The notes under the pieces are model-generated. The model made no database searches. It worked only from the letters and a program-made list of their open reading frames with translations, and had not been told where the DNA came from. From Candidatus Pacebacteria bacterium CG_4_9_14_0_2_um_filter_40_15 (GTDB taxonomy: Bacteria; Patescibacteriota; Microgenomatia; UBA1400; PJMF01), in the NCBI GenBank assembly GCA_002788675.1, contig PFRS01000005.1:131731-195730 (forward strand): a stretch of 64,000 bases of DNA. The letters are read 5' to 3'. The translations under genes and the position numbers were made by a program. Within the stretch, counting starts at the first letter, position 1. Every line of letters starts with the position of its first letter. Positions 13,309 through 29,840 of the stretch are shown piece after piece.

Positions 13309-14089
13309 GTCAAGGGTGAATCTTTTCTCAATTAAGATAACACAAAATGCCTAAACACTATTTATTTTCCGTAAGTAAATAATAGAGTAAGTAGGCATTG
13401 GCATGTTGCAAATGACCTTTAATTGATACTTTTGATTGTGTTAGCTCAAACTCGCTCAATTTCCCTTGTAAAAATTTCTTTTGTTTTTTCCTATACTTGC
13501 GTTGCATGTGCCTCAAAGTATCACCTCTCACCAAAACGTGATCATAAAAAATTCTATACCCCACAAACGGCACTCCATCAGTGACATTTTTAATTGTGTT
13601 TTTTTTGGGATGCAAACTCAAGCCCAACTTTCTATTTAAAAATTTCTCAATATCTTTATTTAACTGCTTCAGCTTCTTTTTATCTGGATGAATAATCAAA
13701 AAATCATCCATGTATCGAGCATACCAACGCTGTTTGAGGGTATGTTTTACGTATTGGTCAAGCTCATTTAGATAGATATTGGCAAAAAGTTGACTGGTTA
13801 GGTTTCCTATTGGTAAGCCTTTTCTTTCCCACTCCAATATAGGTGCATTTTCCTGATGGTTATTTTGATCACTGTTATTGAATTCAAAAAGTGAAAGTTG
13901 TTCGGGAATAGTTTTTTTAAAACTATTTTGGTGGATATGACTTGAAATATTCACCATATCTGCTTTTACTGAGTGAGTAACCACAATTCTTCTAAGAAGC
14001 TCGTTGGTTCTTGGGCAAGTTATTGATTTTTGCAGGATTTCTAGCAAAGTATCCCAGTGAATGTTTTGAAAATACTTATGAATATCACA

Positions 14090-14837: not shown

Positions 14838-15245
14838 CAACACATAGAGTTCTCTTTCTTTTCCATATATACATCTAGCAGCCATGAGAAATTTTTTGAT
14901 TCTGCTTGCTCCAAAGTGTGTTCCCTTATATTTGCGACAAGCATACGAATCAAAAATAAACTTTTTTTCAAATATTGGCTCAATTTGTGCCACAAGGGAG
15001 TGCTGAATTATCCTATCTTTAAATGCAGGCGCAGAAATTCTCCTTGTTTTGGGCTCAAAAATTGTAAAATTGGTGTAGGGCTGAGGATAATATTCACCAG
15101 ATAAAAGAAGCTGTCTTAACTTTAATATATTGCTCTCAATAAAGTATTCATACTCCGCAACACTAATTCTGTCTCTTTTGCCTTTTCTTGCTTTGTAAAA
15201 TGATTTGAGTAACATCTCAAAACTAGAAATTTTATCAAACATCAT

Positions 15246-15454
15246 CTTACATAGTATCCTTATAAGCCCACTTTCCTCATAACTAAAAACATATGTTGCT
15301 AGCTATGAGGATACAGGCTTTTTGTTTTCCCTCAAGAAATTTATATGCTTGAAAGAAAGAGAAAATCTTGTGATCATAATGATCCAGGACATATATCCTT
15401 AAACATATGCCACTCATCTGGCGAAGCCAAATCTTACATGGACTTAATATTAGT
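15246..15454 (-). other. DGR spacer region between TR and RT, containing an imperfect hairpin (cctcata...tatgagg)
   Basis: Its position corresponds to the structured TR-RT spacer of known DGR RNAs. Confidence 0.3.
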
Positions 15455-15572
15455 ATCACTGGCGCAACGAAACCCGATATTGTTGTTCTGATTTCCTGTT
15501 GTATTGTTCAAATTGAGAGCGAAAGGTCCAGCATTCGTTCCATTATTCCAATTACCGCCGCGGAGGAACGCG
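15455..15572 (-). repeat. DGR template repeat (TR), 118 bp
   Basis: Non-coding copy of the VR. In the VR frame it reads AFLRGGNWNNGTNAGPFALNLNNTTGNQNNNIGFRCASD, with AAY (Asn) codons exactly at the positions that differ in the VR. Confidence 0.8.
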
Positions 15573-15605
15573 CACTGCGTTTGTATGATTTTCCCTTTAT
15601 AGTAA

Positions 15606-15947
15606 CTATACCACTTTCATCCAAGCTCGTAGCATTCGAGCAATCTCATTCATTTTTTCTGCACCAAATGCATATTGTTTGATACTTTTAAATTTAAGAT
15701 CTTTAGTCAGTCGTAATAATATTCGCAAAGTATCTAGGTCATTAGAAATTAATTGTTGTAATTTTTGTCTTTCTAACCCTTTTAGACTATTGGCCTTTGA
15801 AACTGTTATAACTAAAGCAATTACCCTTTCTTCAATTGCTTTGCCTAAAACCATTCTATGACTTTTAGGGATACGGTTTACTAAAGGATAAAACCAAAGT
15901 GCTTGGTCATACGTTTTTTGGAAAATAAGTAATTTTTCACACATCAT
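15606..15947 (-). CDS. avd: Avd-like accessory variability determinant (four-helix-bundle family)
   Basis: 113 aa. 'IFQKTYDQALWFYPLVNRIPKSHRMVLGKAIEERV' fits the Avd / 23S-IVS four-helix-bundle family. Sits immediately 5' of the TR on the same strand. Confidence 0.55.
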   Translation of the reverse strand: MMCEKLLIFQKTYDQALWFYPLVNRIPKSHRMVLGKAIEERVIALVITVSKANSLKGLERQKLQQLISNDLDTLRILLRLTKDLKFKSIKQYAFGAEKMNEIARMLRAWMKVV

Positions 15948-16078
15948 AAATCTGTTTGTATCACCACTTTATAACTCTGGGGAAATACCTTCATGTTTAT
16001 TATTACGTAGTTATTATCTTGAAACAAGAAGAGTTGTATTCTTTTTTTGAAAATAATTCATATGACAAGTAATATCCA

Positions 16079-16567: not shown

Positions 16568-17869
16568 TTGATGCGAAAGGTACTCACCACCATTGGAATT
16601 ATTGCCACCTCATTCTTGTTTTTTAGTACTCCTGTTTTTGCACAAACTACCAATCCTGACATCCTCGAATACACCAACAACACTTTACAAATCATCACTC
16701 TTATTTCAACCGCAGCCGCGGTGTTTTTTTTGGTCAAAGCAGGGTATCTCTATATTACTTCATCAGGGAAACCTGAAGCTCTAGAATCTGCAAAGAACAC
16801 CATTAGAAACGCCATAATCGGCTTAACCTTGGTGTTGGCAGCAAATATAGTGACATCTGTCTTTCAGCACGCATTAAACTCTCAGACGACATCAGGAACT
16901 GGCACACCTATTGACGTTGTCAGTATTGAAACTGCTGAACCTTCTGAAGGCTTAACTCAGGTGCTTATTGATGCCATTGGTAGTTTTATTCAAAACATCG
17001 TGGAAAGCTCAACTGAGCCAATTGTGAATGGGGTGTTGGGCTACCTCACCACTACACCTACACTTTTGGATAATGAAGTAGTACGTAACTTCTGGTTTGT
17101 CACTGTTGGAATTGTTGACGCCTTGTTTGTCTTAGTGGTAGCTCTCATGGGACTGCAAGTTATGAGTGCTAGTACTTTTGGATTTGAAGAAGTTGAGATT
17201 AAACAGTTGTTGCCAAGGTTAGGACTGAGTTTTTTAGCTGCAAATATTTCACTCTTTTTGGCCGATTATGCCATTATCACTTGCAACGCCTTGGTTGAGG
17301 CTATACTAGACTCCACTGGAGGACTAAATCACGCTTGGATTCAAGCAGCATTTAATCCGACTGCAGTAATTTCTGGAACCACGCCACTCATCATTTTGAT
17401 TTTCATGGTTATGTTCTTGGTTGTCTCAATCGTGCTGTTACTCATGTATATCAGTCGCTTAATTATTATTTCCCTGGGGGCAGTTCTTTCGCCATTTATC
17501 TTCTTACTCTCAGCACTCCCAAAGTTTTCAGACCTCGCCTCAATTGCAATCAAGACATATCTTGTCAGCGTGTTTATCGTGTTTGTGCATGTGGTGATAA
17601 TTCAACTCGCTAGTTCGTTTTTGACCCTGCCTGAGCACAGTGAAAACTCACTTATTTCTATTGCCGTTGGCATTGGACTGTTTATCACCCTCCTCAAAAC
17701 TCCAAATCTGATGATGCAAATGGTCATGTACACCGCTAACTCTGGATCATTGAAAAAATTAGGAAACCAAATTATAAATGTGATGACAACAGATAACGCT
17801 TCAGTTGCAAGCAGAGCTCAGGCTCAAGACTCTGCATCCAAACTATCAAGAAAGGCAATAAAACTATGA
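16568..17869 (+). CDS. VirB6/TrbL-like polytopic membrane protein whose N-terminal ~100 aa is a paralog of the preceding pilin-like protein
   Basis: N-terminus 'STPVFAQTT...GYLYITSSGKPEALESAKNTIRNAIIGLTLVLAANIV' parallels the upstream ORF 'ATPAFAQTA...GYITSSGNPESLEKSKKTILYSAIGLTLVLGAFVL'. At least six further TM segments follow. Confidence 0.45.
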   Translation: MMRKVLTTIGIIATSFLFFSTPVFAQTTNPDILEYTNNTLQIITLISTAAAVFFLVKAGYLYITSSGKPEALESAKNTIRNAIIGLTLVLAANIVTSVFQHALNSQTTSGTGTPIDVVSIETAEPSEGLTQVLIDAIGSFIQNIVESSTEPIVNGVLGYLTTTPTLLDNEVVRNFWFVTVGIVDALFVLVVALMGLQVMSASTFGFEEVEIKQLLPRLGLSFLAANISLFLADYAIITCNALVEAILDSTGGLNHAWIQAAFNPTAVISGTTPLIILIFMVMFLVVSIVLLLMYISRLIIISLGAVLSPFIFLLSALPKFSDLASIAIKTYLVSVFIVFVHVVIIQLASSFLTLPEHSENSLISIAVGIGLFITLLKTPNLMMQMVMYTANSGSLKKLGNQIINVMTTDNASVASRAQAQDSASKLSRKAIKL

Positions 17870-18372
17870 GAAGCCGAGTCATACCCGCTCAAATAACCAC
17901 TGTAGAAGACAAAATTGCAGGTGATTTTAGTCTGACGCAAATTATGTTGTTACTGTTACCAGTCTTAATTGCTTCGTTTATTTACGCAATCCTTCCACCA
18001 AGCATGAGCTTTGTACTCTACAAACTAATCTTGGCGAGCATTTTTGCCATTGCAAGCATCACTCTGGCAATTAGAGTTAAGGGCAGAATTATTGCAAGTT
18101 GGCTTGTGGTCTTGATCCGATACAACATTAGGCCAAAATACTATGTATTCAACAAAAACTCTGCTACAAATCGAGAAATTATTCAACCTGAGGTTGAGAT
18201 TATCACTGTTGAAGAAAAAGAAACTAAAAGCGCTGATCTAAAAAGTATTCAGAACCTTGATATCAAAGATATTCTCAAACTTCGACACATTCTTGATACA
18301 ACAGATTTCAATCTAACCTACCGCTCCGGCAAGAAAGGAGGACTCAATGTGGCCTTTGAAAAAGTCTCTTAG
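17866..18372 (+). CDS. Small two-TM membrane protein (VirB3-like position)
   Basis: Hydrophobic N-terminal half; located between the VirB6-like and VirB4-like genes. Confidence 0.3.
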   Translation: MRSRVIPAQITTVEDKIAGDFSLTQIMLLLLPVLIASFIYAILPPSMSFVLYKLILASIFAIASITLAIRVKGRIIASWLVVLIRYNIRPKYYVFNKNSATNREIIQPEVEIITVEEKETKSADLKSIQNLDIKDILKLRHILDTTDFNLTYRSGKKGGLNVAFEKVS

Positions 18373-18967
18373 TAAAGCAAGTTCTCGCAATCAAATAGCT
18401 ATAAAAGAAGTGCGTGATGGCATTTTGGTTCTGCCAAATAATGAGCATCGTCTGGTAATCGAAACTTCTTCTGTGAACTTTGAACTTAAAAGTGAAGCTG
18501 AGCAGGACATACTCATAGATAGCTTTCAAACTTTTTTAAACTCACTCCCTTCTCAATTACAAATCCTCATTCGCATTCGAGAAGTAGACATTGATCTATA
18601 CGTGGATTCTATTGAGTTGCTAAAACAAAGTGAAGATGAAAAGAAGTACCTGGAACAAATTGATGATTACACACAATTTATCCGTCAACTCGTATCTGGT
18701 AACAAAATTCTTTCTCGCAAGTTTTACATTGTCTTACCTTACAAACCAGATTCCAAGAGCGATGTATTTGAATTAGCTCAAGCACAGTTAACCCTCACTC
18801 AAGATATGGTAATTAAATCTTTAGAAAAACTAGGTATGAAAGCTAGAAAACTAGATAGCCTGGAAGTCCTGCATCTTTTTTACAGCTTCTACAACAAAAA
18901 TCAACTCAAAACTCAAGAATTAACCAGTACTACTATGAAAGCAATATTGCAGCACAACTATGTTTAA
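18347..18967 (+). CDS. Hypothetical protein; possibly the detached N-terminal domain of VirB4
   Basis: 206 aa. Ends in an ATGTTTAA overlap with the VirB4 ATPase ORF; 206+604 aa approximates a full-length VirB4. Confidence 0.3.
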   Translation: MWPLKKSLSKASSRNQIAIKEVRDGILVLPNNEHRLVIETSSVNFELKSEAEQDILIDSFQTFLNSLPSQLQILIRIREVDIDLYVDSIELLKQSEDEKKYLEQIDDYTQFIRQLVSGNKILSRKFYIVLPYKPDSKSDVFELAQAQLTLTQDMVIKSLEKLGMKARKLDSLEVLHLFYSFYNKNQLKTQELTSTTMKAILQHNYV

Positions 18968-20774
18968 TACCGTTCAAACTCATTACCATAACTTACAAAA
19001 ATGGAAACGAAAAAAAGTCCGCAAGTTTCAAGCAACCCAAGAAAAGAAACGCCGTGAGCGACTCTCACTGCAGTTTAGTTTTGGTGAGCAAGATCAAGTT
19101 GATTTGATTTCCTATTCAGGACTCATGGAAGAATCAACCTACCTACAGATTGGTGATACGTATGTGAGAACTTTGTTTATTTCTGGTTACCCATATGTTG
19201 CCAATGTTGGATGGCTGAATATGCTGATTAACTTTAACCAAGATCTGGACATTTCATACCACATTGAGCAAGTTGATCCACTCATGGCCTTACCTAAATT
19301 AAATCGAAAAATTACTGAGCTTGAGTCAACTAAACGTAGTATGCTCAAGGCCGGAAAAGTAATTGGCTCTGAAATTACCGATCCACTTGAATCTGCTATG
19401 GAGCTCAAAGATAAAATTCAGCGAGGACAAGAGAAACTTTTTCAGATATCAATTTACATGACTCTGAGTGCAAGTAGTCTGGAGGAGCTAAACAAATCTA
19501 CACAAGTGCTAGAGACCATCATGTCCTCCAGGCTGTTTTACATTAAAAACGCCACTTTCCAGCAACTAGAGGACTTACAATCAACCCTTCCTAGAGGTGA
19601 AAACCAACTTGCACAAAAAAGAAATTTAGATAGTTCAAGTGCTGCACTTACTTTTCCGTTTGTGTCGTCTGAACTAGTGCAGGAATCTGGTATTTTATAT
19701 GGCATTAATAAATCAAATAACTCACTAGTCATTGTTGATCGGTTTTCACTTAATAACGCCAACTCAATTATTTTTGCTCAGTCTGGAAGTGGAAAAAGCT
19801 ACACAGCAAAGGTTGAGATCTTGCGCCAACTAATGCAACAAACAAAAGTGATTGTGATTGACCCTGAGCGCGAATATAAGCAACTGGCCAAATCTATTGG
19901 AGGTACATATATCCGACTTTCAGCAACTTCTAAAGAGAAAATCAACCCTTTTGATTTTTCTCTTAAATCTGTGACTGGTGAAAATGGACTAGCAGAACAT
20001 ATCCAAGACCTAACTGAAATTATTTCATTGATGGCAGGTTCTTTGAGTGACGAGGAACGAGCGGTGGTAGACAAGGCATTGATCGAAACCTACAAATCCT
20101 TTGGGATTAGTATGCGTAAGCGCAACTACGAGGTTGATCAAAAATTTCCTTTACTCAAGGACTTCTACGTAGTACTCAAAAAAATGAAGCAAAAAGAGTT
20201 GTGCCACAGGCTAGATAAGTTTGTGTCTGGATCACTCTCAAGCGTATTTGATTCGCAAACTAATGTTGATCTTTCCAATCGACTAGTGGTATTTGACATC
20301 AAAGATCTAGATGAATCTCTCAGGCAAATTATGATCTTAACCACTGCCAACTTTGTGCACTCTCAGGTAAAAAGTGATCCGCAAAAACGCATCTTGGTTA
20401 TTGATGAAGCGTGGTTGCTACTGCAACACGAAGAAAGTGCGCGGTTTTTGGCAGGTCTAGTACGGCGTGCCCGCAAGCATTACTTGGGTGTCACCTTAAT
20501 TTCTCAGCAAGCTAATGACTTTTTGAATCAAGAGTACGGCAGAGCCATTGCCTCACAGTCGTCACTACGAATCCTGATGAAACAAGATACTACATCTATT
20601 AAAAAAGTGGTGCAAGAATTTAACTTAAGTGAGTACGAACAACAGTTTTTACTAACCTGCGACCGAGGTGAAGCCTTGATCATTGCCGATCAAAACCATG
20701 TTGCGGTCAAAATTGTTGCCTCTGAAAAAGAACATCCAATGCTAACCACTGATCCGAAAGATTTATATCTATAG
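18960..20774 (+). CDS. virB4: VirB4/TrbE/CagE-family T4SS ATPase
   Basis: Walker A 'AQSGSGKSYTAK' and Walker B 'LVIDEAWLLL' (DEAW is typical of VirB4). Confidence 0.7.
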   Translation: MFNTVQTHYHNLQKWKRKKVRKFQATQEKKRRERLSLQFSFGEQDQVDLISYSGLMEESTYLQIGDTYVRTLFISGYPYVANVGWLNMLINFNQDLDISYHIEQVDPLMALPKLNRKITELESTKRSMLKAGKVIGSEITDPLESAMELKDKIQRGQEKLFQISIYMTLSASSLEELNKSTQVLETIMSSRLFYIKNATFQQLEDLQSTLPRGENQLAQKRNLDSSSAALTFPFVSSELVQESGILYGINKSNNSLVIVDRFSLNNANSIIFAQSGSGKSYTAKVEILRQLMQQTKVIVIDPEREYKQLAKSIGGTYIRLSATSKEKINPFDFSLKSVTGENGLAEHIQDLTEIISLMAGSLSDEERAVVDKALIETYKSFGISMRKRNYEVDQKFPLLKDFYVVLKKMKQKELCHRLDKFVSGSLSSVFDSQTNVDLSNRLVVFDIKDLDESLRQIMILTTANFVHSQVKSDPQKRILVIDEAWLLLQHEESARFLAGLVRRARKHYLGVTLISQQANDFLNQEYGRAIASQSSLRILMKQDTTSIKKVVQEFNLSEYEQQFLLTCDRGEALIIADQNHVAVKIVASEKEHPMLTTDPKDLYL

Positions 20775-21392
20775 ATGCATGCCATACTTACCACCCATAC
20801 CATCTGGTCATTTAGAAGAGAACTGCAGTTAGTAGCTTTTTCATTTCTGGTTTTGTTGTCTCTGCCAGTGATTGCAGTCATCATCCTGATGCACACCGGC
20901 ATCAATATTGTTTCTGATGCGTTGATTGAAGTGGTAGCAGAAACTCAAACCATTCTTATAAAAAATCCGGCTGATGGGTCTGTTGTAAAAGAAGTTTCTA
21001 AAAAAGTAGCTTGGCCTGTACAAGGAGTTACTACACTCGAGTTTGCGGGCTCAAGCAAATACCAGAAATTCCACGCAGGAATTGATATTGCAAATCCCCA
21101 TGGAAAAGTTGGTGACAAAATTTCACCATTTATGGATGGTACGGTAACCTATGCTGGTGAAATATTCTGGGGGTATGGCAAGCATGTAATTATTGATCAT
21201 GGTGACAATATTAGTTCTGTGTATGCACATCTCAATCGGATTAGTGTTTATGAAGGTCAGGAAGTGAAGGTGGCTGATACAATTGGGGAAATGGGTAGCA
21301 CTGGCTGGTCTACAGGGCCACATTTACATTTTGAGATTAGGGTGTATGGGGTGCCGGTGAATCCTAAAACAATTTTACAGAACACAAACTAA
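20775..21392 (+). CDS. M23-family peptidoglycan endopeptidase (T4SS-associated cell-wall hydrolase)
   Basis: 'HAGIDIANPHG', 'GKHVIIDHGDNISSVYAHL', 'GSTGWSTGPHLHFEI' are LytM/M23 motifs. Confidence 0.75.
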   Translation: MHAILTTHTIWSFRRELQLVAFSFLVLLSLPVIAVIILMHTGINIVSDALIEVVAETQTILIKNPADGSVVKEVSKKVAWPVQGVTTLEFAGSSKYQKFHAGIDIANPHGKVGDKISPFMDGTVTYAGEIFWGYGKHVIIDHGDNISSVYAHLNRISVYEGQEVKVADTIGEMGSTGWSTGPHLHFEIRVYGVPVNPKTILQNTN

Positions 21393-21415
21393 CCATATAT
21401 TGATATAATTTTAGT

Positions 21416-23350
21416 ATGATTATTCCAGACAATGAAACCGCTGTTGACCTTCTAAATAACCAACCAATAGCTAATAACATCGTTGATTTACTTAAAGACC
21501 ACATGGGTGAGCCAATCACAATTGGCGTTCATGGTGACTGGGGTGCTGGCAAATCAAGTGTTTTGGAAATGATTGAAGCATCTTTTATAAATAACAAAGA
21601 TGGTATTTTATGCCTAAGGTTTGATGGATGGAGGTTTCAAGGTTTCGAAGATGCAAAGATTGCCTTAATTGAAGGGATCGTAACTGGCTTACTGAATGAG
21701 CGCTCGTTATCAGCCAAATCAGTCGAAAAAATAAAAAACCTCTTAAAAAGAGTTGACTGGCTCAAATTAGCGAAACATGGCGGTGGTTTGGCAGTAACTG
21801 CTTTTACTGGTTTACCAAATCCTGATCATATACGGCTAGCCGTTACTGCATTAAAAACATTAGTAAATGACCCAGGTGCAGCTGTAGACAAAGAAAAAAT
21901 AACTGCTGCATTAGAAAGTGCAGATGGAATACTAAGGCCTGCCGAGGAAGTAAAAAGAATACCAGAAGAGATACAAGCGTTCAGAAAAGAGTTTGATGAT
22001 CTACTTGAAGAATCAGGCATTAACCAATTAGTTGTATTGATTGACGATTTAGACAGGTGCCTACCAAAAACTGTGATTGAAACCCTTGAGGCTATACGTC
22101 TTTTTGTATTCACGAGCAGAACAGCTTTTATTGTTGCTGCAGATGAAGGTATGATTGAATACTCAGTCCGAGAACACTTTCCTGATTTGCCAGAGTCTAC
22201 AAATTCGAGAGATTATGCACGTAATTATTTAGAAAAATTAGTTCAAGTTCCTTTCAGGTTACCTAGTCTCGGAGAACTTGAAACAAAAGTGTATGTAAGT
22301 CTCCTTCTAATTGGCTCTGAGTTAGGCGAAGACGATAGTGACTTTTTGAAGTTGGCTGCAGCAGCAAAAGAAGTAATGCGCAAACCTTGGGAAGAATCAT
22401 CGCTGGAAATTAAAACAATAAATGAAACTCTTGGAGAAAAAGCAAAGCAAGTCACTGACATAATTCTTATAAGTGAACAAATTGGACACTCTCTTGCAGG
22501 AGGAACGAATGGTAATCCGAGGCAGATTAAGCGATTCCTAAATACATTACTCTTACGCAAAGAAGCAGCAGAAGCACGTGGGTTTGGCGATGAAATTGCA
22601 TTGCCGATCCTTGCAAAATTGATGCTGGCAGAACGTTTTATCCCGGGACTTTTTGACCGCATCGCACAAACAGCCGCTATTGACCCGACAGGAGTTTGCC
22701 CTGAAATTGCATCTTTGGAAACCTCTATCAAGAATGATTCTGAAAGTGAACAAGAAACATCAACACCTCAGGTAAAAACGTCAACTGAAGATGAAAAAAG
22801 CACACCCGAATGGCTAGATAATCCTGAAATACTTGCCTGGGCAAGAATAGAACCACCTCTAGCAAAGGTAGATTTGAGACCCTATCTTTTCATAGCCAAA
22901 GAAAGAAAAGACTACTTTGCAGGGGCTGCTATATCGCCCAAACTTTCACTCCTTGCTGAAAAACTGATGGGCGGCGAACTTGGAGTTCAAGGACAATCTT
23001 CTCAAGTTTCTTCACTTGCTCCAGAAGAACAAGTAACCCTGTTTGATTTAATTAGAGGAAGAACCATGAGGTCGGGAAACTTCGCTAAAAAACCAGATGG
23101 TATTGAAGGACTTAAATTACTCTCAAAAAATAACACTGCATTAGAAACAAAACTTGTGGATTTTTTAGATACTCTTCCCACCTCAACGCTTGGTCCGTGG
23201 TGTATTGGTGGATGGGATACCACAATTAAAGAAACAGGTAATAAAGCAAGATTAGCAACTCTTGTTCAGGGGTGGGCTGAGGTTAATGATAACAGGGTAC
23301 TCAGTAGTGTGGCAAAACAAGCCGTGAATCTGCCTAAGAAGGGAAAATGA
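21416..23350 (+). CDS. qatA: KAP-family P-loop NTPase (QatA-like)
   Basis: 'GVHGDWGAGKSSVLEMIE' is the KAP NTPase Walker A signature; 644 aa. Confidence 0.6.
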   Translation: MIIPDNETAVDLLNNQPIANNIVDLLKDHMGEPITIGVHGDWGAGKSSVLEMIEASFINNKDGILCLRFDGWRFQGFEDAKIALIEGIVTGLLNERSLSAKSVEKIKNLLKRVDWLKLAKHGGGLAVTAFTGLPNPDHIRLAVTALKTLVNDPGAAVDKEKITAALESADGILRPAEEVKRIPEEIQAFRKEFDDLLEESGINQLVVLIDDLDRCLPKTVIETLEAIRLFVFTSRTAFIVAADEGMIEYSVREHFPDLPESTNSRDYARNYLEKLVQVPFRLPSLGELETKVYVSLLLIGSELGEDDSDFLKLAAAAKEVMRKPWEESSLEIKTINETLGEKAKQVTDIILISEQIGHSLAGGTNGNPRQIKRFLNTLLLRKEAAEARGFGDEIALPILAKLMLAERFIPGLFDRIAQTAAIDPTGVCPEIASLETSIKNDSESEQETSTPQVKTSTEDEKSTPEWLDNPEILAWARIEPPLAKVDLRPYLFIAKERKDYFAGAAISPKLSLLAEKLMGGELGVQGQSSQVSSLAPEEQVTLFDLIRGRTMRSGNFAKKPDGIEGLKLLSKNNTALETKLVDFLDTLPTSTLGPWCIGGWDTTIKETGNKARLATLVQGWAEVNDNRVLSSVAKQAVNLPKKGK

Positions 23351-23351
23351 T

Positions 23352-24221
23352 ATGGGCACATCAAATCCAAATGGAGGATCTAGTGGAAGTAACCCACTTA
23401 TTCCAAGTTGGTTAGTTGATCCTGCAGGAACTAGCACTGAAAACTCAGACACTGCTGAAACTGTAGATAATCCCAATGAAGACTCACAGACTGGCAGCGA
23501 GGAACAAAGCATACCTACTGTTGTGGTAGACCATCAAAGGTATTCTCCTGCAAGAAGCAACTTCACAAGATTTACTAAATCCGGTGGCCGCGACACTAAT
23601 AGCTTGAGGCGGGCTGTGTCTAGTTACGTCCGAAGAAGCTCGGGTGGTGCGAAAAATGCTACCACAAAGATGGGATCTTCGAGAAAGACCGCGTCAAAAT
23701 TGCTGGGTTTCTTACAAGAAGCATCTAATAATGGAATTGAATCTGCTCTTAAATCACTGAACTTAGAAAGCTTATCAGGAAACTCTATGAACGAGTTGTT
23801 CATTGAGTTAACTGACTTTCTTTGCTCTGAGGCTGGCACGGTGGATGCTGGCATTGCTAGAGATGCTTTTATTAAAACTATCGCTGATGTAAATGAAGAG
23901 CAGGTAATAGATGACGGTACTTTGAGTTATGAGCAGGTGCAGACAATTTTTGAACTCTATATTACTCACACGATTGAAGATATGATACTAAATGAAATTG
24001 GAACCAATATAATTTTCCAAACACAGACTTTGGATGATGCTGACCTTGTTCAGGCTCAACTTCACGACTTTATTAGAAATGGCGTCAGTGATGCCCTATC
24101 AAACTCAGGTAACAAAATTAATCAACTTAACCAAAACGAAATTGGAAGTTTTGTTGACAACATTTACGAAAGCACTTTTAATTTACTGTCCGCTCTCTAC
24201 GAGGAAGGTGGTGTTGGATGA
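23352..24221 (+). CDS. qatB: Hypothetical protein in the QatB position
   Basis: 289 aa with no recognisable motif. Start/stop coupled to both neighbours. Confidence 0.35.
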   Translation: MGTSNPNGGSSGSNPLIPSWLVDPAGTSTENSDTAETVDNPNEDSQTGSEEQSIPTVVVDHQRYSPARSNFTRFTKSGGRDTNSLRRAVSSYVRRSSGGAKNATTKMGSSRKTASKLLGFLQEASNNGIESALKSLNLESLSGNSMNELFIELTDFLCSEAGTVDAGIARDAFIKTIADVNEEQVIDDGTLSYEQVQTIFELYITHTIEDMILNEIGTNIIFQTQTLDDADLVQAQLHDFIRNGVSDALSNSGNKINQLNQNEIGSFVDNIYESTFNLLSALYEEGGVG

Positions 24222-25582
24222 TGAATCATGTTATCTATGGTTACTTTGGTTCTGAGGACAAGCCAACTTTAAATCCTGGTGATGGAGTAAAGGTAACACT
24301 ACTAAATCTACTAGGTAGTGATGGATATCTTGGTCATGGTATTGGCAACGTAGTTGATGATCTTGCAAAGCTTGGTGTATTCCCAAGTCAAATCGGAATC
24401 GAATTACTCGTTTTAGCAGCGCATGTACAAGCGGCAGACACAAGGATTTCAAGATCTACAGGGTCTGAGGACTCATGGACTAGAAAAATCAGCGTAGTTG
24501 TTCCAGTTACAAGTGATGTGAATAGATGGGAACGTGTATCAACTATTTTGACTAGAGCCTTAGATTTTTTAACAGGTGATCTGTGGGACATACGATTTAG
24601 AGCAAGTAGTTATAACGAAGCGCTGGTTAAAGAACAAGCTCCTTTGGAAACACAAACCTTCGACTCAATTAGTTTGTTTTCAGGAGGGTTGGACAGTCTA
24701 ATTGGTGCCATAGACTTACTTGAACAAAAAGAAAATACACTTTTTGTAAGCCATGCTAGTGATGGAGCAACAAGCGCAGCGCAATATGAGTTGTTTGATG
24801 GCTTAAAAGAGCAATATGAAAACCTAAATATCGAACGTATAAGACTATGGATGAGTTTCCCGAAAAATTTGGTGGAAGACTCCCAACCAGAGATGACAAT
24901 GAGGAGCAGGTCTTTTCTATTCTTTGCATTGGGTGTGGCTGCAGGCACTGGTTTAGAGCATAAGTTCAAGCTATTTGTGCCAGAAAATGGACTCATTGCG
25001 CTAAATGTTCCTTTAGATCCTTTACGTATGGGATCTCACAGCACCCATACAACGCATCCTTTTTACATGGCAAGATGGAATGAACTTTTGGTCGAATTAG
25101 GGATCGATGGAGAGTTAACTAACCCCTATTGGGATAAGACGAAAGGTGAAATGGTTGGAGCATGCGCCAACAAGCAGTTACTTTCTGACTTAATATCTAC
25201 ATCACTTTCATGCTCGTCACCTTCAAAAGGACGTTGGTCGGGAAAATCAAGTGAACACTGTGGTTATTGTGTGCCCTGTATTATCCGACGAGCCGCTATA
25301 AAAGCCAGCTCACTTAACGATAACACTCCTTACTCTCTCGACAATTTGCAAGGACAGTCACTAAACACTCTGGTTGCAGAAGGCAAACAGATCAGGTCAT
25401 TTCAATTTGCTCTTAGTCGTTTACAAGCAAAACCTGAATTAGCAAAATATCTCATTTACAATGCTGGACCATTGCTCGATCTTTCAAGTACTACAAAATA
25501 TGGTCTTTCTGATGTTTACACAAGAGGACTTTTGGAGGTTTCGAAACTTTTAGAAGGTGTTGAAACCAAACCAATTGAATAA
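24218..25582 (+). CDS. qatC: QueC-like PP-loop ATPase with an N-terminal extension (QatC-like)
   Basis: PP-loop 'LFSGGLDSLIGA' and C-terminal zinc motif 'CGYCVPCIIRRAA', as in QueC. About 140 extra N-terminal residues. Confidence 0.6.
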   Translation: MMNHVIYGYFGSEDKPTLNPGDGVKVTLLNLLGSDGYLGHGIGNVVDDLAKLGVFPSQIGIELLVLAAHVQAADTRISRSTGSEDSWTRKISVVVPVTSDVNRWERVSTILTRALDFLTGDLWDIRFRASSYNEALVKEQAPLETQTFDSISLFSGGLDSLIGAIDLLEQKENTLFVSHASDGATSAAQYELFDGLKEQYENLNIERIRLWMSFPKNLVEDSQPEMTMRSRSFLFFALGVAAGTGLEHKFKLFVPENGLIALNVPLDPLRMGSHSTHTTHPFYMARWNELLVELGIDGELTNPYWDKTKGEMVGACANKQLLSDLISTSLSCSSPSKGRWSGKSSEHCGYCVPCIIRRAAIKASSLNDNTPYSLDNLQGQSLNTLVAEGKQIRSFQFALSRLQAKPELAKYLIYNAGPLLDLSSTTKYGLSDVYTRGLLEVSKLLEGVETKPIE

Positions 25583-25588
25583 ATTAAT

Positions 25589-26320
25589 ATGCAACTCGTT
25601 GATTTTCATTGCCACCTTGATCTGTATCCAGACTTTACTGAAGTAATAAAGAATTACGAACAAAAAAGGATCTATACACTCGCAGTTACTACCACTCCTA
25701 GAGCATGGCTCAAGAATAATGAGCTTACAAAATATTCAAAATATATTCAGGTTGCACTTGGTTATCATCCACAATTAGTAGATGAATCGTGGCGGAAAGA
25801 ACTGGAAATCTGGATAAAACACCTTCCTGAAACAAAATTTGTTGGTGAAGTAGGCATTGATGGCAGCACTAAATTTAAGAATACATTGGTGTTTCAAAAA
25901 CAGGTTTTTAAAGAAATTCTCATACATTGTGCTAATGCAGAAAATAAAATTCTATCTGTTCATAGTTTGAACAGCTCGAGAACTGTTCTAGACTTGATTG
26001 AGGAATACTTGCCTCAGAGTAAAGGTCGTGTAGTTTTACACTGGTTCACGGGAACTATTCCAGAGGCAAAAAAAGCTTTAAAACTTGGTTGCTACTTTTC
26101 TATCAACCCTCGAATGCTAAATACAAAAAAAGGGCAAGAGCTTCTGAAAACATTACCAATTGATAAGTTATTAACAGAAACAGACGGACCCTTTGTCAAG
26201 ATCAATATCTCCGATACAATTCGTGGACTAGCAATAGCAAAACATAATACGGTTGATTTTATCAGTAAGCAGATTTCAAATAATTTTCACACTTTAATAA
26301 ATACACAACTACTAGAGTAA
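25589..26320 (+). CDS. qatD: TatD-family metal-dependent nuclease (QatD-like)
   Basis: 'VDFHCHLDLY', 'GEVGIDGS' and 'TETDGPF' are TatD motifs. Confidence 0.6.
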   Translation: MQLVDFHCHLDLYPDFTEVIKNYEQKRIYTLAVTTTPRAWLKNNELTKYSKYIQVALGYHPQLVDESWRKELEIWIKHLPETKFVGEVGIDGSTKFKNTLVFQKQVFKEILIHCANAENKILSVHSLNSSRTVLDLIEEYLPQSKGRVVLHWFTGTIPEAKKALKLGCYFSINPRMLNTKKGQELLKTLPIDKLLTETDGPFVKINISDTIRGLAIAKHNTVDFISKQISNNFHTLINTQLLE

Positions 26321-26347
26321 TCAAAAAAATACTTCTATAATACACAT

Positions 26348-26554
26348 ATGGGATCACAACAAAAATTTGGCCAAAACCTAAGACTAGCTCGAAAAAAAGC
26401 TGATCTTACTCAACAACAAGTTGCAGAAAAAGCCAAACTACACACCAACTACTACGCACGTATTGAAAGAGGGGAAGAAAATCCCTCCTATGAAGTGCTA
26501 GAAAAAATTGTCAAAGCCTTGAAGATAAAGTCCTCAGAGGTATTTCCGTTTTAA
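26348..26554 (+). CDS. XRE-family helix-turn-helix transcriptional regulator
   Basis: 'LRLARKKADLTQQQVAEKAKLHTNYYARIERGEENPSYEVLEKIVKAL' is a Cro/C1-type HTH. Confidence 0.6.
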   Translation: MGSQQKFGQNLRLARKKADLTQQQVAEKAKLHTNYYARIERGEENPSYEVLEKIVKALKIKSSEVFPF

Positions 26555-26790
26555 TCGTTTCTCGTTACTTCACCTTCATCAGAAACTACTACTTTGCCTG
26601 ATTCTAAGTCCTCCCCGACACGGTCAACCAAAGCACCTGCCATAGTTTGCAAGCCCTCAATTGCCTTAATTGCATTTTCTCGAGTTGCGCTCTTGGGATT
26701 TTTTTCCTCAAGCATTACGAGCATTTCTTGAATTTCTTCTTCAGTTGGTTTTCTTATCATATTTTTCCTTAATAGTTGCAAGTGTAACAC
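26551..26790 (-). CDS. Hypothetical small acidic protein
   Basis: 79-aa ORF, 4 bp downstream of the PLD nuclease gene on the same strand. Confidence 0.3.
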   Translation of the reverse strand: MLHLQLLRKNMIRKPTEEEIQEMLVMLEEKNPKSATRENAIKAIEGLQTMAGALVDRVGEDLESGKVVVSDEGEVTRND

Positions 26791-26794
26791 GAAA

Positions 26795-27235
26795 CTAGAT
26801 AAATCGCCCTAGTTTTAAGAAATGAAACATCTTTTGTGCATGTCCATCGCCCACAGTCCTTCTCATCAACTCTCGACTATTGGCTTGAGATAGTATGTTC
26901 AGACTGCCTTCCCACAAGATATCCCTATCAATAATCGCTAACTTCCTGTGATGATTGTTACTAGTCACCAGAACCTGGACACCAACTCTCTCAAAATACT
27001 CAATCACTTCCTCTGCCTGCAACTGCATTGCTGGCATATGCTTGTTGGGATCTCTTGTAATAACATAAACTTTTACACCATCAGCTATTAGCTTTTCAAA
27101 AACAGGGCACAGTGTAAGTGTTCTGTCATTCGTAATAAATGGACTTTCAATCACGACTTCACGCTTTGCGTGAAGTAAATCCTGCCCAAATTTCTTGTAA
27201 AAAGTAGTTTCATCAAATAATGAGGTACTAAACAT
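26795..27235 (-). CDS. Single-HKD phospholipase-D-family nuclease (Nuc-like)
   Basis: 'NHHRKLAIIDRD' gives the HxK(x)4D motif; 146 aa, the size of Nuc-type endonucleases. Confidence 0.55.
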   Translation of the reverse strand: MFSTSLFDETTFYKKFGQDLLHAKREVVIESPFITNDRTLTLCPVFEKLIADGVKVYVITRDPNKHMPAMQLQAEEVIEYFERVGVQVLVTSNNHHRKLAIIDRDILWEGSLNILSQANSRELMRRTVGDGHAQKMFHFLKLGRFI

Positions 27236-27258
27236 CTTTCGTCTCCTTTTCTATATTA

Positions 27259-27329
27259 TCACAATATATAAGACGTAGTTCCTCGAGTTCAGCTAAAAAT
27301 GGTTCAAACTGTTGAGCCTTAGGGTCACA
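27259..27329 (+). repeat. 71-bp intergenic direct repeat, copy 1 (TCACAATATATAAGACGTAGTTCCTCGAGTTCAGCTAAAAATGGTTCAAACTGTTGAGCCTTAGGGTCACA)
   Basis: Near-identical copies at 28601-28671 and 29866-29936; degenerate copy at 30584-30623. Confidence 0.85.
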
Positions 27330-27335
27330 ACGCAG

Positions 27336-27365
27336 AAAAAGATCCATTCATGGATCTTTTTTTGT
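27336..27365 (+). terminator. Rho-independent terminator-like hairpin (agatccat-tc-atggatct + T7) immediately after repeat copy 1
   Basis: Perfect 8-bp stem followed by 'ttttttt'. Confidence 0.5.
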
Positions 27366-28781: not shown

Positions 28782-29840
28782 ATGTTTAAACCAAACTTTA
28801 CAATCACGCCAGAAATCAATAACAAAATTGCCGAAATCGAAAAACTGAAATCACTTTTCGATCAAGCAAATATTCTTCCTGAGTTAGCTATAGAATTACG
28901 ATTTCGAGCAACTGTTGAATCTGTTCATAGTTCCACATCTATTGAGGGAAACCCACTAAATGAGCAAGAAGTTCAGAATGTACTAGAAGGAAATACTGTT
29001 TCTGCACCTGAGTATGCAATACAAGAAGTCCTTAACTACAAAAATGCAATGAACTGGCTCAATCAAGGGAAAATCTCAACAGAAGGATTGAGTGAAAAGG
29101 ACATCCAAAAGCTTCATAGCTTAGTAATGGAAAAACTATTGCAACCAGAAAAGGTTGGTTCATTCCGCCCTGGAGATATATATGTTGTTGATCAAATTAA
29201 AAATAAAGAAATAATTCAGTATCAGGGTCCTAATGCAAAAGAGTTAAAACAACTAGTAGCTTCTTTTTTAAAATGGATTAGCATCCAAAAAAGTGAATCA
29301 AAACTTCATCCGGTACTACTTGCGGGTTTAATCCACTACATTTTTGTTTCAATTCATCCATTCTCTGACGGAAACGGAAGAACTACTAGACTTCTCACCT
29401 ATCAATATCTCAAATCTGTTAATTACGACTTCAATGATTCTCTATCACTAGACAGTTACTATCTACAAAATCGAGAAAGATACTATGAAGCACTCAGCAG
29501 AGGTAGAACCTTTGATGATCGCATGTTCTCTGACATCACACCCTTTTTAGAATTTTTTGTAGATGGCTTTTTGAACTCAGTAAAAAGTCTCACAAAATAT
29601 GTACAAATTGGAAAAGTATTAGATAGTTCAAAAAAACCGGTAAGACTTAATCAGGAGGAGCTAGCAATACTAGACTATGTCTATCAGTTTAAGTCTATTT
29701 CACTTGAAGATGCAGTAATTGCGACAGGAGCAACCAGGAGAACCGTTCAAAGAAGACTAAGCAATTTAGTTGACAAAATGATTCTTGAAGTCAAAGGTAA
29801 AGGGCCTGCTACAGAGTATCACCTAGCATCAAGAAAATAG
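28782..29840 (+). CDS. Fic/Doc-family protein (AMPylation/adenylyltransferase fold)
   Basis: Canonical Fic motif 'HPFSDGNGRTTR'. Confidence 0.75.
   Translation: MFKPNFTITPEINNKIAEIEKLKSLFDQANILPELAIELRFRATVESVHSSTSIEGNPLNEQEVQNVLEGNTVSAPEYAIQEVLNYKNAMNWLNQGKISTEGLSEKDIQKLHSLVMEKLLQPEKVGSFRPGDIYVVDQIKNKEIIQYQGPNAKELKQLVASFLKWISIQKSESKLHPVLLAGLIHYIFVSIHPFSDGNGRTTRLLTYQYLKSVNYDFNDSLSLDSYYLQNRERYYEALSRGRTFDDRMFSDITPFLEFFVDGFLNSVKSLTKYVQIGKVLDSSKKPVRLNQEELAILDYVYQFKSISLEDAVIATGATRRTVQRRLSNLVDKMILEVKGKGPATEYHLASRK

What the first reader, a model, noticed from the sequence alone, without database searches (positions are those of the whole stretch)
21416..26320. Four-gene KAP NTPase / unknown / QueC-like / TatD locus: Qat-type antiphage system in an atypical host
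The genes are tightly coupled, with stops and starts overlapping or within 6 bp. They encode a KAP P-loop NTPase ('GVHGDWGAGKSS'), a 289-aa unknown, a QueC-like PP-loop enzyme ('SGGLDS', 'CGYCVPC') with a ~140-aa N-terminal extension, and a TatD nuclease ('DFHCHLD').

This matches, as far as I recall, the QatABCD defence system (QueC-like Associated with ATPase and TatD). Its mechanism is still unknown. The locus lies directly after the T4SS module, i.e. in a defence/mobile island. A second, housekeeping TatD at 54110-54973 (metG-linked) provides an internal contrast.
Basis: partly seen in the sequence, partly recalled or inferred. Interest (0 to 1): 0.7.

Follow-up and report, generated by a model that had tools for sequence, protein, structure and literature searches.

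The report
Qat antiphage operon in CPR bacterium
This is a complete and apparently working copy of the known four-gene QatABCD anti-phage system, found in an unusual host (an uncultured, tiny-genome Patescibacteria/CPR bacterium), where it fills a swap-in slot for defence genes at the end of the cell's type IV secretion gene cluster.

Summary
Four tightly coupled + strand genes at 21416-26320 encode QatA, QatB, QatC and QatD. All four exceed NCBI's curated equivalog cut-offs and match PADLOC models end to end. Every published catalytic or signature residue that I could align is present, apart from one conservative Asp-to-Glu change in QatC. dN/dS is 0.09-0.17, so the operon is under purifying selection. 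It is not a queuosine operon: the canonical QueC motifs are absent and no QueD/QueE/FolE was found among the window ORFs scanned.

The "atypical host" claim holds. The linked methionyl-tRNA synthetase groups with Patescibacteria (67% identity or less), a phylum absent from a published survey of 631 QatD sequences.

Two points go beyond the finding. The mechanism is no longer unknown: 2026 papers show a QatB-QatC complex, modification of the QatB N-terminal glycine, and NTP-inhibited QatD nuclease activity. Also, the operon exactly fills a 4,956-bp slot between the T4SS M23 peptidase gene and an HTH/PLD-nuclease pair. In related T4SS loci that slot is empty (28-29 bp) or holds Avs4, CBASS, R-M, PDC-S53 or a second, divergent Qat.

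Verdict: a new member of a known kind, in a notable host and context.

The parts
21416..23350 (+). qatA: KAP-family P-loop NTPase (644 aa). Walker A GDWGAGKS at residue 40, Walker B LIDDLDR at 208, plus a C-terminal domain with no known homologue.
   Evidence: NF041923 QatA 848.8 bits (cut-off 600), PADLOC QatA 900 bits over residues 1-643, Pfam KAP_NTPase 1.1e-49. No solved-structure relative.
23352..24221 (+). qatB: all-helical protein (289 aa) with a polar, probably disordered N-terminal tail that starts MGTS. Gly2 is the presumed modification site. The conserved P18 and W20 are present (LIPSW).
   Evidence: NF041924 195.9 bits (cut-off 100), PADLOC QatB 335 bits. PDB 9zee_A and 9vll_A at E about 3e-36. 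MGTS and P..W are conserved in all six lineages compared.
24218..25582 (+). qatC: QueC-family PP-loop ATP pyrophosphatase (454 aa) with N- and C-terminal extensions. Features present: SGGLDS 155-160, T276/T278, zinc cysteines C332/C348/C351/C354, R229/R231/F235, HP 280-281 and P(x)4TK.
   Evidence: NF041925 519.4 bits (cut-off 280), PADLOC QatC 613 bits. PDB QatC 9zee_B and 9vlk_A at E about 4e-107. Motif table.
25589..26320 (+). qatD: type II (HxH) TatD-family nuclease (243 aa). Residues H7, H9, H60, E87, D91, H125, H151, E197 and D199.
   Evidence: NF041926 295.3 bits (cut-off 230), PADLOC QatD 319 bits, Pfam TatD_DNase 6.4e-43. PDB 9xsn_A 'Hydrolase TatD' 4.3e-52 and 3gg7_A 9.4e-54. Residues.
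21401..21409 (+). Extended -10-like element TGATATAAT, ending 6 nt before the qatA ATG, with no Shine-Dalgarno sequence between. Possibly qatA's own promoter giving a leaderless or short-leader mRNA (inference).
   Evidence: Sequence. A TATAAT 5-8 nt upstream of the qatA ATG is also present in L084, L085 and L089. The promoter scan as a whole was not above chance.
16568..21392 (+). Upstream anchor: Patescibacteria-type T4SS genes. Pilin/TrbL-like 16568-17869, PrgI-like 17866-18372, TraC-like 18347-18967, VirB4 18960-20774, M23 peptidase 20775-21392.
   Evidence: Pfam hits. The same order is seen in L081-L086 and L089. M23 follows VirB4 in 73 of the 80 related loci.
26348..27347 (.). Downstream anchor of the slot: HTH_XRE gene 26348-26554 (+), with a TATAAT at 26336-26341 that is 6 nt before its ATG; small ORF 26551-26790 (-; called as 69 aa in public annotation); PLD-family nuclease 26795-27235 (-); 39-aa ORF 27228-27347 (-).
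   Evidence: Precomputed Pfam families. Conserved downstream of T4SS clusters with or without Qat.

Best explanation
The locus is a genuine, complete and probably functional QatABCD anti-phage system in an uncultured Patescibacteria (CPR) bacterium. It is carried as exchangeable cargo in a defence-gene slot at the 3' end of the host's T4SS gene cluster.

The likely mechanism is inferred by homology to the E. coli, P. aeruginosa and A. baumannii systems:
1. QatB loses Met1.
2. QatB forms a 1:1 complex with QatC, and the free amine of its Gly2 sits in the QatC PP-loop active site.
3. QatC uses ATP to adenylate a carboxylate first substrate. This may be 7-carboxy-7-deazaguanine, but its identity is still disputed.
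4. Gly2 attacks the adenylate, which leaves QatB N-terminally modified.
5. The same QatB tail tethers QatD, a metal-dependent 3'-5' ssDNA exonuclease and AP endonuclease. QatD is held in check by cellular NTPs and degrades phage replication intermediates once infection changes that balance.
6. QatA, a DNA-binding KAP NTPase oligomer, widens the range of phages covered.

Shown here: gene content, order and coupling; conservation of the residues needed for steps 1-5; purifying selection; host phylum; and the hotspot context. Inferred: every biochemical step in this particular host.
For: Family membership: all four proteins exceed the curated NCBIfam equivalog cut-offs and align end to end with PADLOC Qat models. 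QatB and QatC match the solved QatBC structures.

Residues:
- QatB starts MGTS and has P18/W20. G2 and the P16/W18 segment are essential in P. aeruginosa (PMC13279940).
- QatC has S155/D159/S160, T276/T278, four zinc cysteines, R229/R231/F235, HP and P(x)4TK. Each is invariant in 120/120 homologues or nearly so.
- QatD has HxH, H60, E87, H125, H151, E197 and D199 (roles from PMC13434339).
- QatA has intact Walker A and B motifs.

Selection: dN/dS is 0.09-0.17 for all four genes against relatives with dS of 0.18-0.97. For qatD that rests on L093 (0.148); the L091 qatD comparison has dS 1.85, which is saturated.

Not an assembly artefact: the identical protein and neighbourhood appear in independent JGI, ENA and Logan assemblies, including contigs of 212 kb and more than 1 Mb.

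Host: MetRS best matches are Patescibacteria MAGs.

Hotspot: the M23-to-HTH gap is 28-29 bp in L095, L096, L107 and L108, and up to 8.4 kb elsewhere. It is 4,956 bp in the window, which is exactly qatABCD. Other cargos are Avs4 (1918 bits), PDC-S53 (1341), type III CBASS (cyclase 416, TRIP13 402, NucC 271), type I R-M, type II R-M, an OLD/AriA-like ATPase, a reverse transcriptase, a PDC-M68B/LmuB-like gene, a Ppl-like gene, PDC-S39 and a second Qat only 22-37% identical.

Literature: QatBC complex, essential QatC catalysis, ATP binding, and an NDG-modified GTSKAY peptide from QatB. In groundwater MAGs, Qat is 23-fold over-represented on ICEs/IMEs (PMC12259885 source data).
Against: There is no experimental evidence for this operon or this host.

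The first substrate of QatC is unresolved. Two groups saw no CDG-dependent activity in vitro, and the T-x-T pair replaces the CDG-binding Y-x-D.

The Asp equivalent to E. coli QatC D63 was called catalytic by Libby et al. and is Asp in 112/112 other homologues. It is Glu here (E62) and Glu or Gln in 7 of the 8 clade members.

Part of the basic patch shown to be important in P. aeruginosa QatC (R410, R414) is Ala and Leu here. Those positions are also variable in most homologues.

Host assignment rests on one marker gene plus the T4SS type. Several of the matching MAG records carry discordant titles such as 'uncultured Pseudomonadales'.

Confidence: 0.88

Rival explanations
1. The operon is a real Qat system, but in this context it mainly serves the T4SS-bearing element. 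It might compete with plasmids or other mobile elements, attack incoming or outgoing ssDNA, or stabilise the element, rather than defend against phage.
For: Four diverged lineages keep Qat immediately after the T4SS genes on the same strand with 23-54 bp gaps. QatD is an ssDNA 3'-5' exonuclease and QatA binds ssDNA and dsDNA, and ssDNA is the conjugative transfer intermediate. Qat is enriched on ICEs/IMEs.
Against: The same slot holds classical anti-phage systems (Avs4, CBASS, R-M) in related loci, and the closest T4SS relatives lack Qat entirely. Qat is therefore interchangeable cargo, not part of the T4SS machinery. A clade member (L087) sits beside R-M genes with no T4SS. qatA has its own -10-like element. 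Anti-phage activity has been shown for homologues.
Confidence: 0.08
2. The operon is a recently acquired, decaying or non-functional copy in a host that cannot supply its substrate.
For: The host phylum is atypical. CPR bacteria are generally thought to lack de novo purine and pterin pathways (general knowledge, not tested here). The otherwise invariant D63-equivalent is changed to Glu.
Against: All ORFs are intact and dN/dS is 0.09-0.17 for all four genes. All other catalytic residues are conserved across lineages only 60-66% identical. The clade is monophyletic (200/200 bootstrap) and deep, which implies long residence. GC content (39.5%) is close to the window's (37.6%).
Confidence: 0.03
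3. It is a metabolic or nucleic-acid-modification operon (queuosine/preQ0 synthesis, or Dpd-like 7-deazaguanine DNA modification) rather than Qat.
For: QatC retains the QueC PP-loop and zinc site. There is a weak Pfam QueC hit of 20.3 bits.
Against: That hit is below Pfam's cut-off. YxQxHxxE, VPxRN and YPDC are absent. Y/D is replaced by T/T. No QueD, QueE, FolE, Tgt or DpdA was found among the window ORFs scanned. E. coli QatC cannot complement a queC deletion (PMC13329287).
Confidence: 0.01
4. It is an assembly or binning chimera that joins a proteobacterial Qat fragment to CPR DNA.
For: Published surveys find Qat mostly in Pseudomonadota.
Against: The same junctions occur in independent assemblies from three sources and in diverged lineages. 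The nearest named homologues are only 55-58% identical. There is no GC discontinuity.
Confidence: 0.01

Closest known systems
QatABCD (Gao et al. 2020 'Qat'; E. coli NCTC9009, P. aeruginosa and A. baumannii systems; PDB 9ZEE/9ZEF, 9VLK/9VLL, 9XSN)
   Same: Same four genes, order and tight coupling. All four proteins are above the equivalog cut-offs. Conserved features: MGTS N-terminus of QatB; SGGxDS, T-x-T, 4-Cys zinc site and both extensions of QatC; HxH type II TatD site of QatD; Walker motifs of QatA.
   Different: The host is Patescibacteria rather than Pseudomonadota or Bacillota. It belongs to a distinct, well-supported QatC clade (200/200) that is 55-58% or less identical to the nearest named homologues. 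The D63-equivalent is Glu. The operon is anchored in a T4SS-linked slot. Within the clade, qatAB, qatC and qatD have been shuffled by recombination at gene boundaries.
Type IV CBASS Cap9-CdnD deazaguanylation (Wassarman et al., bioRxiv 10.1101/2025.04.06.647259)
   Same: A QueC-family enzyme takes the N-terminal Gly2 of a partner protein into its active site for an ATP-dependent N-terminal conjugation. QatB has an MGTS start where the CD-NTase has MGGS.
   Different: There is no CD-NTase, Cap10/TGT-like gene or cyclic-nucleotide effector here. QatC has remodelled the substrate pocket (T-x-T rather than Y-x-D) and added N- and C-terminal domains. The partner is QatB, which has no structural homologue.
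Canonical QueC (7-cyano-7-deazaguanine synthase, PF06508 cluster 1)
   Same: Rossmann-like PP-loop core, SGGxDS motif and a Cys4 zinc site.
   Different: The YxQxHxxE, VPxRN and YPDC motifs are absent. The protein is about 230 aa longer. It has no QueD/QueE neighbours and scores below the Pfam cut-off.
Defence hotspots in mobile or conserved loci, such as SXT ICE hotspot 5, P2/P4 prophage hotspots and core-gene-flanked hotspots in Pseudomonas and E. coli (cited from my own knowledge of the field)
   Same: Conserved flanking genes (M23 peptidase on one side, HTH/PLD on the other) enclose a variable cargo of unrelated defence systems, and empty sites also exist.
   Different: The anchors are the 3' end of the Patescibacteria-type T4SS cluster. 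The T4SS survey of this phylum (PMC12102498) does not mention defence genes. The aquifer defensome paper notes T4SS genes in defence islands only in general terms.

Membership tests
QatABCD defence system | Four genes in the order qatA-qatB-qatC-qatD, co-oriented and tightly coupled | tested here: met
   Gaps of 1 nt, -4 nt (overlap) and 6 nt, all on the + strand. The canonical ABCD form accounts for 98.1% of 631 surveyed loci.
QatABCD defence system | QatA: KAP P-loop NTPase above the curated equivalog cut-off, with Walker A and B motifs | tested here: met
   NF041923 848.8 bits against a cut-off of 600. GDWGAGKS at residue 40 and LIDDLDR at 208.
QatABCD defence system | QatB: family match, a long polar N-terminal tail, the MGTS start (exposed Gly2) and a conserved Pro/Trp segment | tested here: met
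   NF041924 195.9 bits against 100. Sequence MGTSNPNGGSSGSNPLIPSW with P18 and W20. Residues 1-65 are 75% G/S/T/N/P/D/E/Q. Essentiality comes from PMC13279940 and PMC13639016.
QatABCD defence system | QatC: PP-loop SGGxDS, T-x-T in place of the Y-x-D of QueC/Cap9, a Cys4 zinc site, and N- and C-terminal extensions | tested here: met
   NF041925 519.4 bits against 280. S155-S160, T276/T278 and C332/348/351/354 are present. The alignment to PDB QatC covers residues 1-453.
QatABCD defence system | QatC cluster-2 signature motifs (Libby et al.): D63; D(x)4R(x)7WxR; DxW/YxxxF; RxRxxxF/Y; ExG; HP; P(x)4TK; Y376; CGxCxxC..RR | tested here: inconclusive
   All are present except D63, which is E62 here. 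That position is E or Q in 7 of the 8 clade members and D in 112/112 others. The Cys spacing is C(x)15, as in 108 of those 112 close homologues, rather than the C(x)19 of the E. coli protein.
QatABCD defence system | QatD: type II TatD with an HxH motif and the binuclear-site residues | tested here: met
   NF041926 295.3 bits against 230. H7, H9, H60, E87, H125, H151, E197 and D199 are present.
QatABCD defence system | Stable 1:1 QatB-QatC complex, with QatB tail binding to QatD | not testable with these tools
   Interface residues are only partly conserved: R401 is kept, while the R410 and R414 equivalents are Ala and Leu. These positions vary family-wide. No complex prediction tool was available.
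QatABCD defence system | Confers phage resistance; QatB Gly2 is modified | not testable with these tools
   This needs experiments. Purifying selection (dN/dS 0.09-0.17) is only indirect support.
Canonical QueC / queuosine biosynthesis | PF06508 above threshold; YxQxHxxE, VPxRN and YPDC motifs; QueD/QueE neighbours | tested here: not met
   PF06508 scores 20.3 bits, below the 22-bit cut-off. All three motifs are absent. No Que genes were found among the window ORFs scanned.
Type IV CBASS (Cap9/Cap10) | A CD-NTase with an MGGS N-terminus, a Cap10 TGT-like protein, and a short (about 185 aa) Cap9 | tested here: not met
   No cyclase or TGT-like gene lies in or near the locus. QatC is 454 aa.
Defence hotspot (conserved flanks, variable cargo) | Homologous flanking genes, empty sites, and unrelated defence systems in the same interval | tested here: met
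   The M23-to-HTH gap ranges from 28 bp to 8.4 kb across the 32 related loci where both anchors were found. Twelve of the 13 occupied slots of at least 2 kb hit PADLOC defence models, including L109, which was only scanned against Pfam (AAA_15/SMC_N ATPase hit, so it is not counted as a PADLOC hit). L094 hit nothing in PADLOC or Pfam. The six shortest cargos (0.9-1.9 kb) were scanned only against Pfam and showed no defence families.

The most novel reading that the evidence does not exclude
CPR bacteria are generally thought unable to make purine- or pterin-derived precursors. A Qat operon kept under purifying selection in several CPR lineages would then imply one of two things. Either the still-unidentified first substrate of QatC is not a host-made queuosine intermediate (CDG), or it is scavenged from the bacterial host or supplied by the infecting phage, in which case substrate supply could itself be the infection signal. 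Alongside this, the M23|HTH-PLD junction of the Patescibacteria T4SS cluster would be a previously undescribed, phylum-wide defence hotspot, within which the Qat modules (qatAB, qatC, qatD) are recombined independently.
Probability: 0.3. Interest if true: 0.65.

Novelty: new member of a known kind. Interest (0 to 1): 0.4.

Why it matters
Qat is a characterised defence family, so the locus itself is not new biology. Three things still give it value.

1. It extends Qat to Patescibacteria. This phylum has tiny genomes and was missing from a published QatD survey, although groundwater surveys report unusually dense defence content in CPR.

2. It gives a natural test of an open biochemical question: what QatC adenylates. 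Two labs could not get CDG to react, and one lab detected a trace of NDG-modified QatB. If the Qat-bearing CPR genomes lack FolE, QueD and QueE, then CDG made by the cell cannot be the substrate.

3. The operon marks a well-defined, easily searchable slot between the T4SS M23 peptidase gene and an HTH/PLD pair. This slot collects diverse defence systems. It could be mined for new systems in a phylum where most genes are unannotated, and several cargo genes in it match no known family.

Tried and rejected
- Queuosine operon: rejected on motifs, Pfam score and neighbourhood.
- tRNA integration site: no tRNA genes anywhere in the window.
- Composition anomaly: Qat is 39.5% GC against 37.6% for the window, so there is no clear foreign signature.
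- Promoter and terminator scan: counts were no higher than in shuffled sequence (33 promoter-like sites against 35.2 expected). I therefore use only the lineage-conserved TATAAT-N6-ATG arrangement, and only as an inference.
- QatA solved-structure relatives: none. I did not pursue a structure prediction of its C-terminal domain.
- Literature on Qat in CPR, queuosine capacity of CPR, or a T4SS-linked hotspot: nothing specific found.
- D63 role: only Libby et al. mention it. The three structural papers' main texts do not.
- First Biopython NJ bootstrap timed out. I replaced it with a numpy implementation.
- First motif script overwrote duplicate labels and was redone.
- Two family searches failed on off-by-one coordinates and were corrected.
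- Whole-genome check for FolE/QueD/QueE in this organism: not possible.

Full report
**1. The observation.** The junctions are a 1-nt gap, a 4-bp ATGA overlap and a 6-nt gap. The quoted motifs are present. The locus follows VirB4 (18960-20774) and an M23 peptidase (20775-21392) of a T4SS module. A second TatD sits next to metG at 54110-54973. It is only 22% identical to the locus TatD and scores 61.8 bits on the QatD model, against a cut-off of 230.

**2. What it is.** All four proteins match Qat models end to end.

| Protein | PADLOC | NCBIfam equivalog score / cut-off |
|---|---|---|
| QatA | 900 bits | 848.8 / 600 |
| QatB | 335 bits | 195.9 / 100 |
| QatC | 613 bits | 519.4 / 280 |
| QatD | 319 bits | 295.3 / 230 |

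Pfam sees the KAP NTPase and TatD domains. It gives only a sub-threshold QueC hit on the zinc region of QatC (20.3 bits against a 22-bit cut-off). QatC and QatB match the recently solved QatBC structures: 9zee and 9vlk/9vll, at E about 4e-107 and 3e-36. QatD matches 9xsn_A, deposited as 'Hydrolase TatD', and 3gg7_A. QatA has no solved relative.

**3. Residue-level membership tests.** I took the defining features from four 2026 papers.
- QatB starts MGTS, has the conserved Pro/Trp segment (P18, W20), and has a tail that is 75% polar or small residues.
- QatC has SGGLDS (155-160), the T276/T278 pair that replaces the CDG-binding Tyr/Asp of QueC and Cap9, four zinc cysteines, R229/R231/F235, ExG, HP, P(x)4TK and the Tyr376 equivalent. 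Each of these is invariant, or nearly so, in 120 homologues.
- The canonical QueC motifs YxQxHxxE, VPxRN and YPDC are absent.
- QatD has H7, H9, H60, E87, H125, H151, E197 and D199. QatA has intact Walker A and B motifs.

There are two deviations. The position equivalent to E. coli D63, which Libby et al. call catalytic, is Glu here, whereas it is Asp in 112/112 homologues outside this clade. Two of the three basic-patch arginines mutated in the P. aeruginosa protein are Ala and Leu here, but those positions vary in most homologues.

No QueD, QueE, FolE or Tgt was found among the window ORFs of at least 120 aa that I scanned. A few ORFs were not scanned. Of the 20 proteins matched no NCBIfam family and were never scanned against Pfam, so this check is not exhaustive.

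**4. Is it functional?**
- Against relatives with unsaturated synonymous sites (dS 0.18-0.97), dN/dS is 0.09-0.17 for all four genes. For qatD this rests on L093 (dN/dS 0.148); the L091 qatD comparison has dS 1.85, which is saturated.
- The eight closest 90%-identity clusters form a clade with 200/200 NJ bootstrap support. Internal identity falls to 61%, and all catalytic residues are retained.
- The exact protein and its neighbourhood recur in independent JGI, ENA and Logan assemblies. This rules out a chimera.

**5. Host.** The linked MetRS (52625-54103) finds 80 species-representative genomes at 50-67% identity. Wherever a lineage is named, it is Patescibacteria: Paceibacterota, Moranbacteria, Collierbacteria, Uhrbacteria and others. 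Some third-party-assembled MAG records carry titles such as 'uncultured Pseudomonadales'. I regard these as unreliable labels, but I flag them. The T4SS gene set (PF18895 pilin, PrgI, TraC-like, VirB4, M23) is the type described for this phylum (PMC12102498). A survey of 631 QatD sequences found Pseudomonadota (91.7%), Bacillota (6.8%) and sporadic others, with no Patescibacteria. 'Atypical host' is therefore fair. The nearest named QatC homologues (Ferrovum, Thiomonas, Acidithiobacillus, Nitrospirae, Acidobacteriota) are only 55-58% identical, so no donor can be named.

**6. Context: a defence slot in the T4SS cluster.**

Relatives with only 61-66% QatC identity (L084, L085/L086, L089) keep the whole arrangement: pilin, PrgI, TraC-like, VirB4, M23, QatABCD, HTH, small ORF, PLD nuclease. 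One clade member (L087) has Qat next to R-M genes without a T4SS.

A metagenome scan with a VirB4 alignment returned 80 related T4SS loci, with VirB4 72-93% identical to the window's. None of these loci carries a close Qat, including the nearest ones at 89-93% VirB4 identity.

The distance from the end of the M23 gene to the HTH gene is:
- 28-29 bp in L095, L096, L107 and L108 (empty sites);
- 46-252 bp in eight others;
- up to 8.4 kb elsewhere;
- 4,956 bp in the window, which is exactly qatABCD.

| Locus | Cargo in the slot |
|---|---|
| L169 | Avs4 (1918 bits) |
| L153 | PDC-S53 (1341 bits) |
| L164 | Type III CBASS: cyclase 416, TRIP13 402, NucC 271 bits |
| L110 | Type I R-M: HsdR 567, HsdM 597, HsdS 318 bits |
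| L144 | Type II R-M: 421 and 370 bits |
| L125 | OLD/AriA-like ATPase |
| L106 | Reverse transcriptase |
| L161 | PDC-M68B/LmuB-like gene plus an REase-like gene |
| L158 | Ppl-like protein |
| L172 | PDC-S39 |
| L134 | A second QatABCD, only 22-37% identical to this one |

The shorter cargos, and L094, have no recognisable defence family.

In L129 the junction sequence just after M23 (atatattgatataatt) is identical to the window's, although the cargo differs. Source data of the aquifer defensome study independently show that Qat is 23-fold over-represented on ICEs/IMEs. That paper and the Patescibacteria T4SS paper do not describe this slot.

**7. Modular recombination inside the operon.**
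- Against L084, nucleotide identity jumps from about 61% to about 85% at the qatA start. It falls back to about 65% at the qatB/qatC junction. Protein identities are QatA 87%, QatB 83%, QatC 66% and QatD 52%.
- Against L091, QatA, B and C are 82-87% identical but QatD is only 59%.
- Against L085, the whole T4SS-Qat-HTH-PLD block is uniformly about 60% identical.

So qatAB, qatC and qatD have been exchanged at gene boundaries. This fits reports that QatBC and QatD can act as separable units.

**8. How it most likely works.** This is inferred by homology; none of it was tested here.
1. Met1 of QatB is removed.
2. Gly2 enters the QatC active site within a 1:1 complex.
3. QatC adenylates a carboxylate first substrate, and Gly2 attacks the adenylate.
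4. The QatB tail also tethers QatD.
5. QatD is a 3'-5' ssDNA exonuclease and AP endonuclease that is inhibited by physiological NTP levels.
6. QatA is a DNA-binding oligomeric NTPase that broadens the phage range.

[quoted passage not shown] One group detected an NDG-modified GTSKAY peptide. Two groups found no CDG-dependent activity and pointed to the T-x-T pocket. A TGATATAAT element 6 nt upstream of the qatA ATG, present in all four lineages, suggests that qatA has its own promoter. This is an inference only, because the general promoter scan was not above chance.

**9. Novelty and verdict.** Its statement that the mechanism is unknown is now out of date. The locus is a new member of a known family, so the classification is 'new member of a known kind'. 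Its interest lies in three things:
- the host phylum;
- the T4SS-anchored defence slot, which is a known kind of phenomenon that I could not find described for this locus;
- the chance to test the QatC substrate question by asking whether Qat-bearing CPR genomes can make CDG at all.

Interest is 0.4.

Noticed in passing
window 7036-16000 (VR 10459-10579, TR 15452-15572, RT 13358-14110, IS1595 transposase 14127-14813, bAvd about 15606-15947): A diversity-generating retroelement. A 121-nt repeat pair is 85% identical, and 17 of its 18 mismatches fall at adenines of the copy next to the bAvd gene (the template repeat). The variable copy lies in the FGE-sulfatase (C-type lectin fold) domain, residues 345-385, of a 1525-aa fn3-containing protein. 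The RT ORF is short (250 aa, with YMDD present). An IS1595-family transposase gene sits between the RT and the TR/Avd, so the element may be disrupted.
   Followed up: partly
window 21416-24221 vs L084; window 25589-26320 vs L091: Mosaic Qat operons. qatA and qatB are 87% and 83% identical to L084, while qatC and qatD are 66% and 52%, with breakpoints at the qatA start and the qatB/qatC junction. In L091, qatA, B and C are about 85% identical but qatD is 59%. Qat modules are therefore exchanged at gene boundaries.
   Followed up: yes
window 24401-24403 (QatC residue E62): The position equivalent to E. coli QatC D63 is Asp in 112/112 other close homologues. It is Glu in 6 and Gln in 1 of the 8 members of this T4SS-linked clade. 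The basal member (P0008) keeps Asp.
   Followed up: partly
L134 5389-10867: A second, very divergent QatABCD (22-37% identical to the window's; PADLOC QatA 414, QatB 137, QatC 357, QatD 244 bits), plus an extra 238-aa gene with no match. It occupies the same M23|HTH-PLD slot in a related T4SS locus.
   Followed up: partly
L094 5533-8294; L106 4014-5852; L110 12400-14906; L129 12431-13285; L102 12349-13293; L116 6386-7495: Cargo genes in the same defence slot with no PADLOC or Pfam match. The L110 and L106 genes were scanned only against PADLOC, and the L129, L102 and L116 genes only against Pfam. These are candidates for undescribed defence genes.
   Followed up: no
window 26348-27347: A conserved HTH_XRE gene, convergent with a small ORF, a 146-aa PLD-family nuclease (weak hits to MkoC, DrmC, DpdK and NucT) and a 39-aa ORF. 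This group accompanies the T4SS cluster whether or not Qat is present. It may be a T4SS-associated Nuc-like nuclease or a separate small defence or toxin module.
   Followed up: partly
window 11841-12623 and 28782-29840: Further defence-type genes in the same region: an AbiEii nucleotidyltransferase toxin (Pfam 1.3e-31) and a Fic protein that matches the PADLOC SoFic model (168 bits) but falls far below the NCBIfam SoFic cut-off.
   Followed up: no
window 16-3946: A coupling-protein-like ATPase (TrwB/TraG domains), a Replic_Relax protein and an ArdC-like protein lie upstream of the T4SS genes. This hints that the T4SS copy here belongs to a conjugative element. The published survey found most Patescibacteria T4SS clusters to lack relaxases.
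   Followed up: no
window 21401-21409 and 26336-26341; L084, L085, L089, L100, L102, L129 junctions: A TATAAT box 5-8 nt upstream of the ATG, with no Shine-Dalgarno sequence, recurs at the first cargo gene and at the HTH gene across lineages. This suggests leaderless or very short-leader transcripts in these CPR loci.
   Followed up: partly
window 37065-39458 (-): A 797-aa protein with two ATP-grasp regions. The C-terminal half is D-Ala-D-Ala-ligase-like (205 bits, below the cut-off) and the N-terminal half is carbamoyl-phosphate-synthase-like. This is an unusual fusion in the housekeeping part of the window.
   Followed up: no
L001-L080 record titles: Many third-party-assembled MAG records whose MetRS is 50-62% identical to this CPR-type MetRS are titled 'uncultured Pseudomonadales' or 'Gammaproteobacteria bacterium'. 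These are probably mislabelled organism names in the public records.
   Followed up: no
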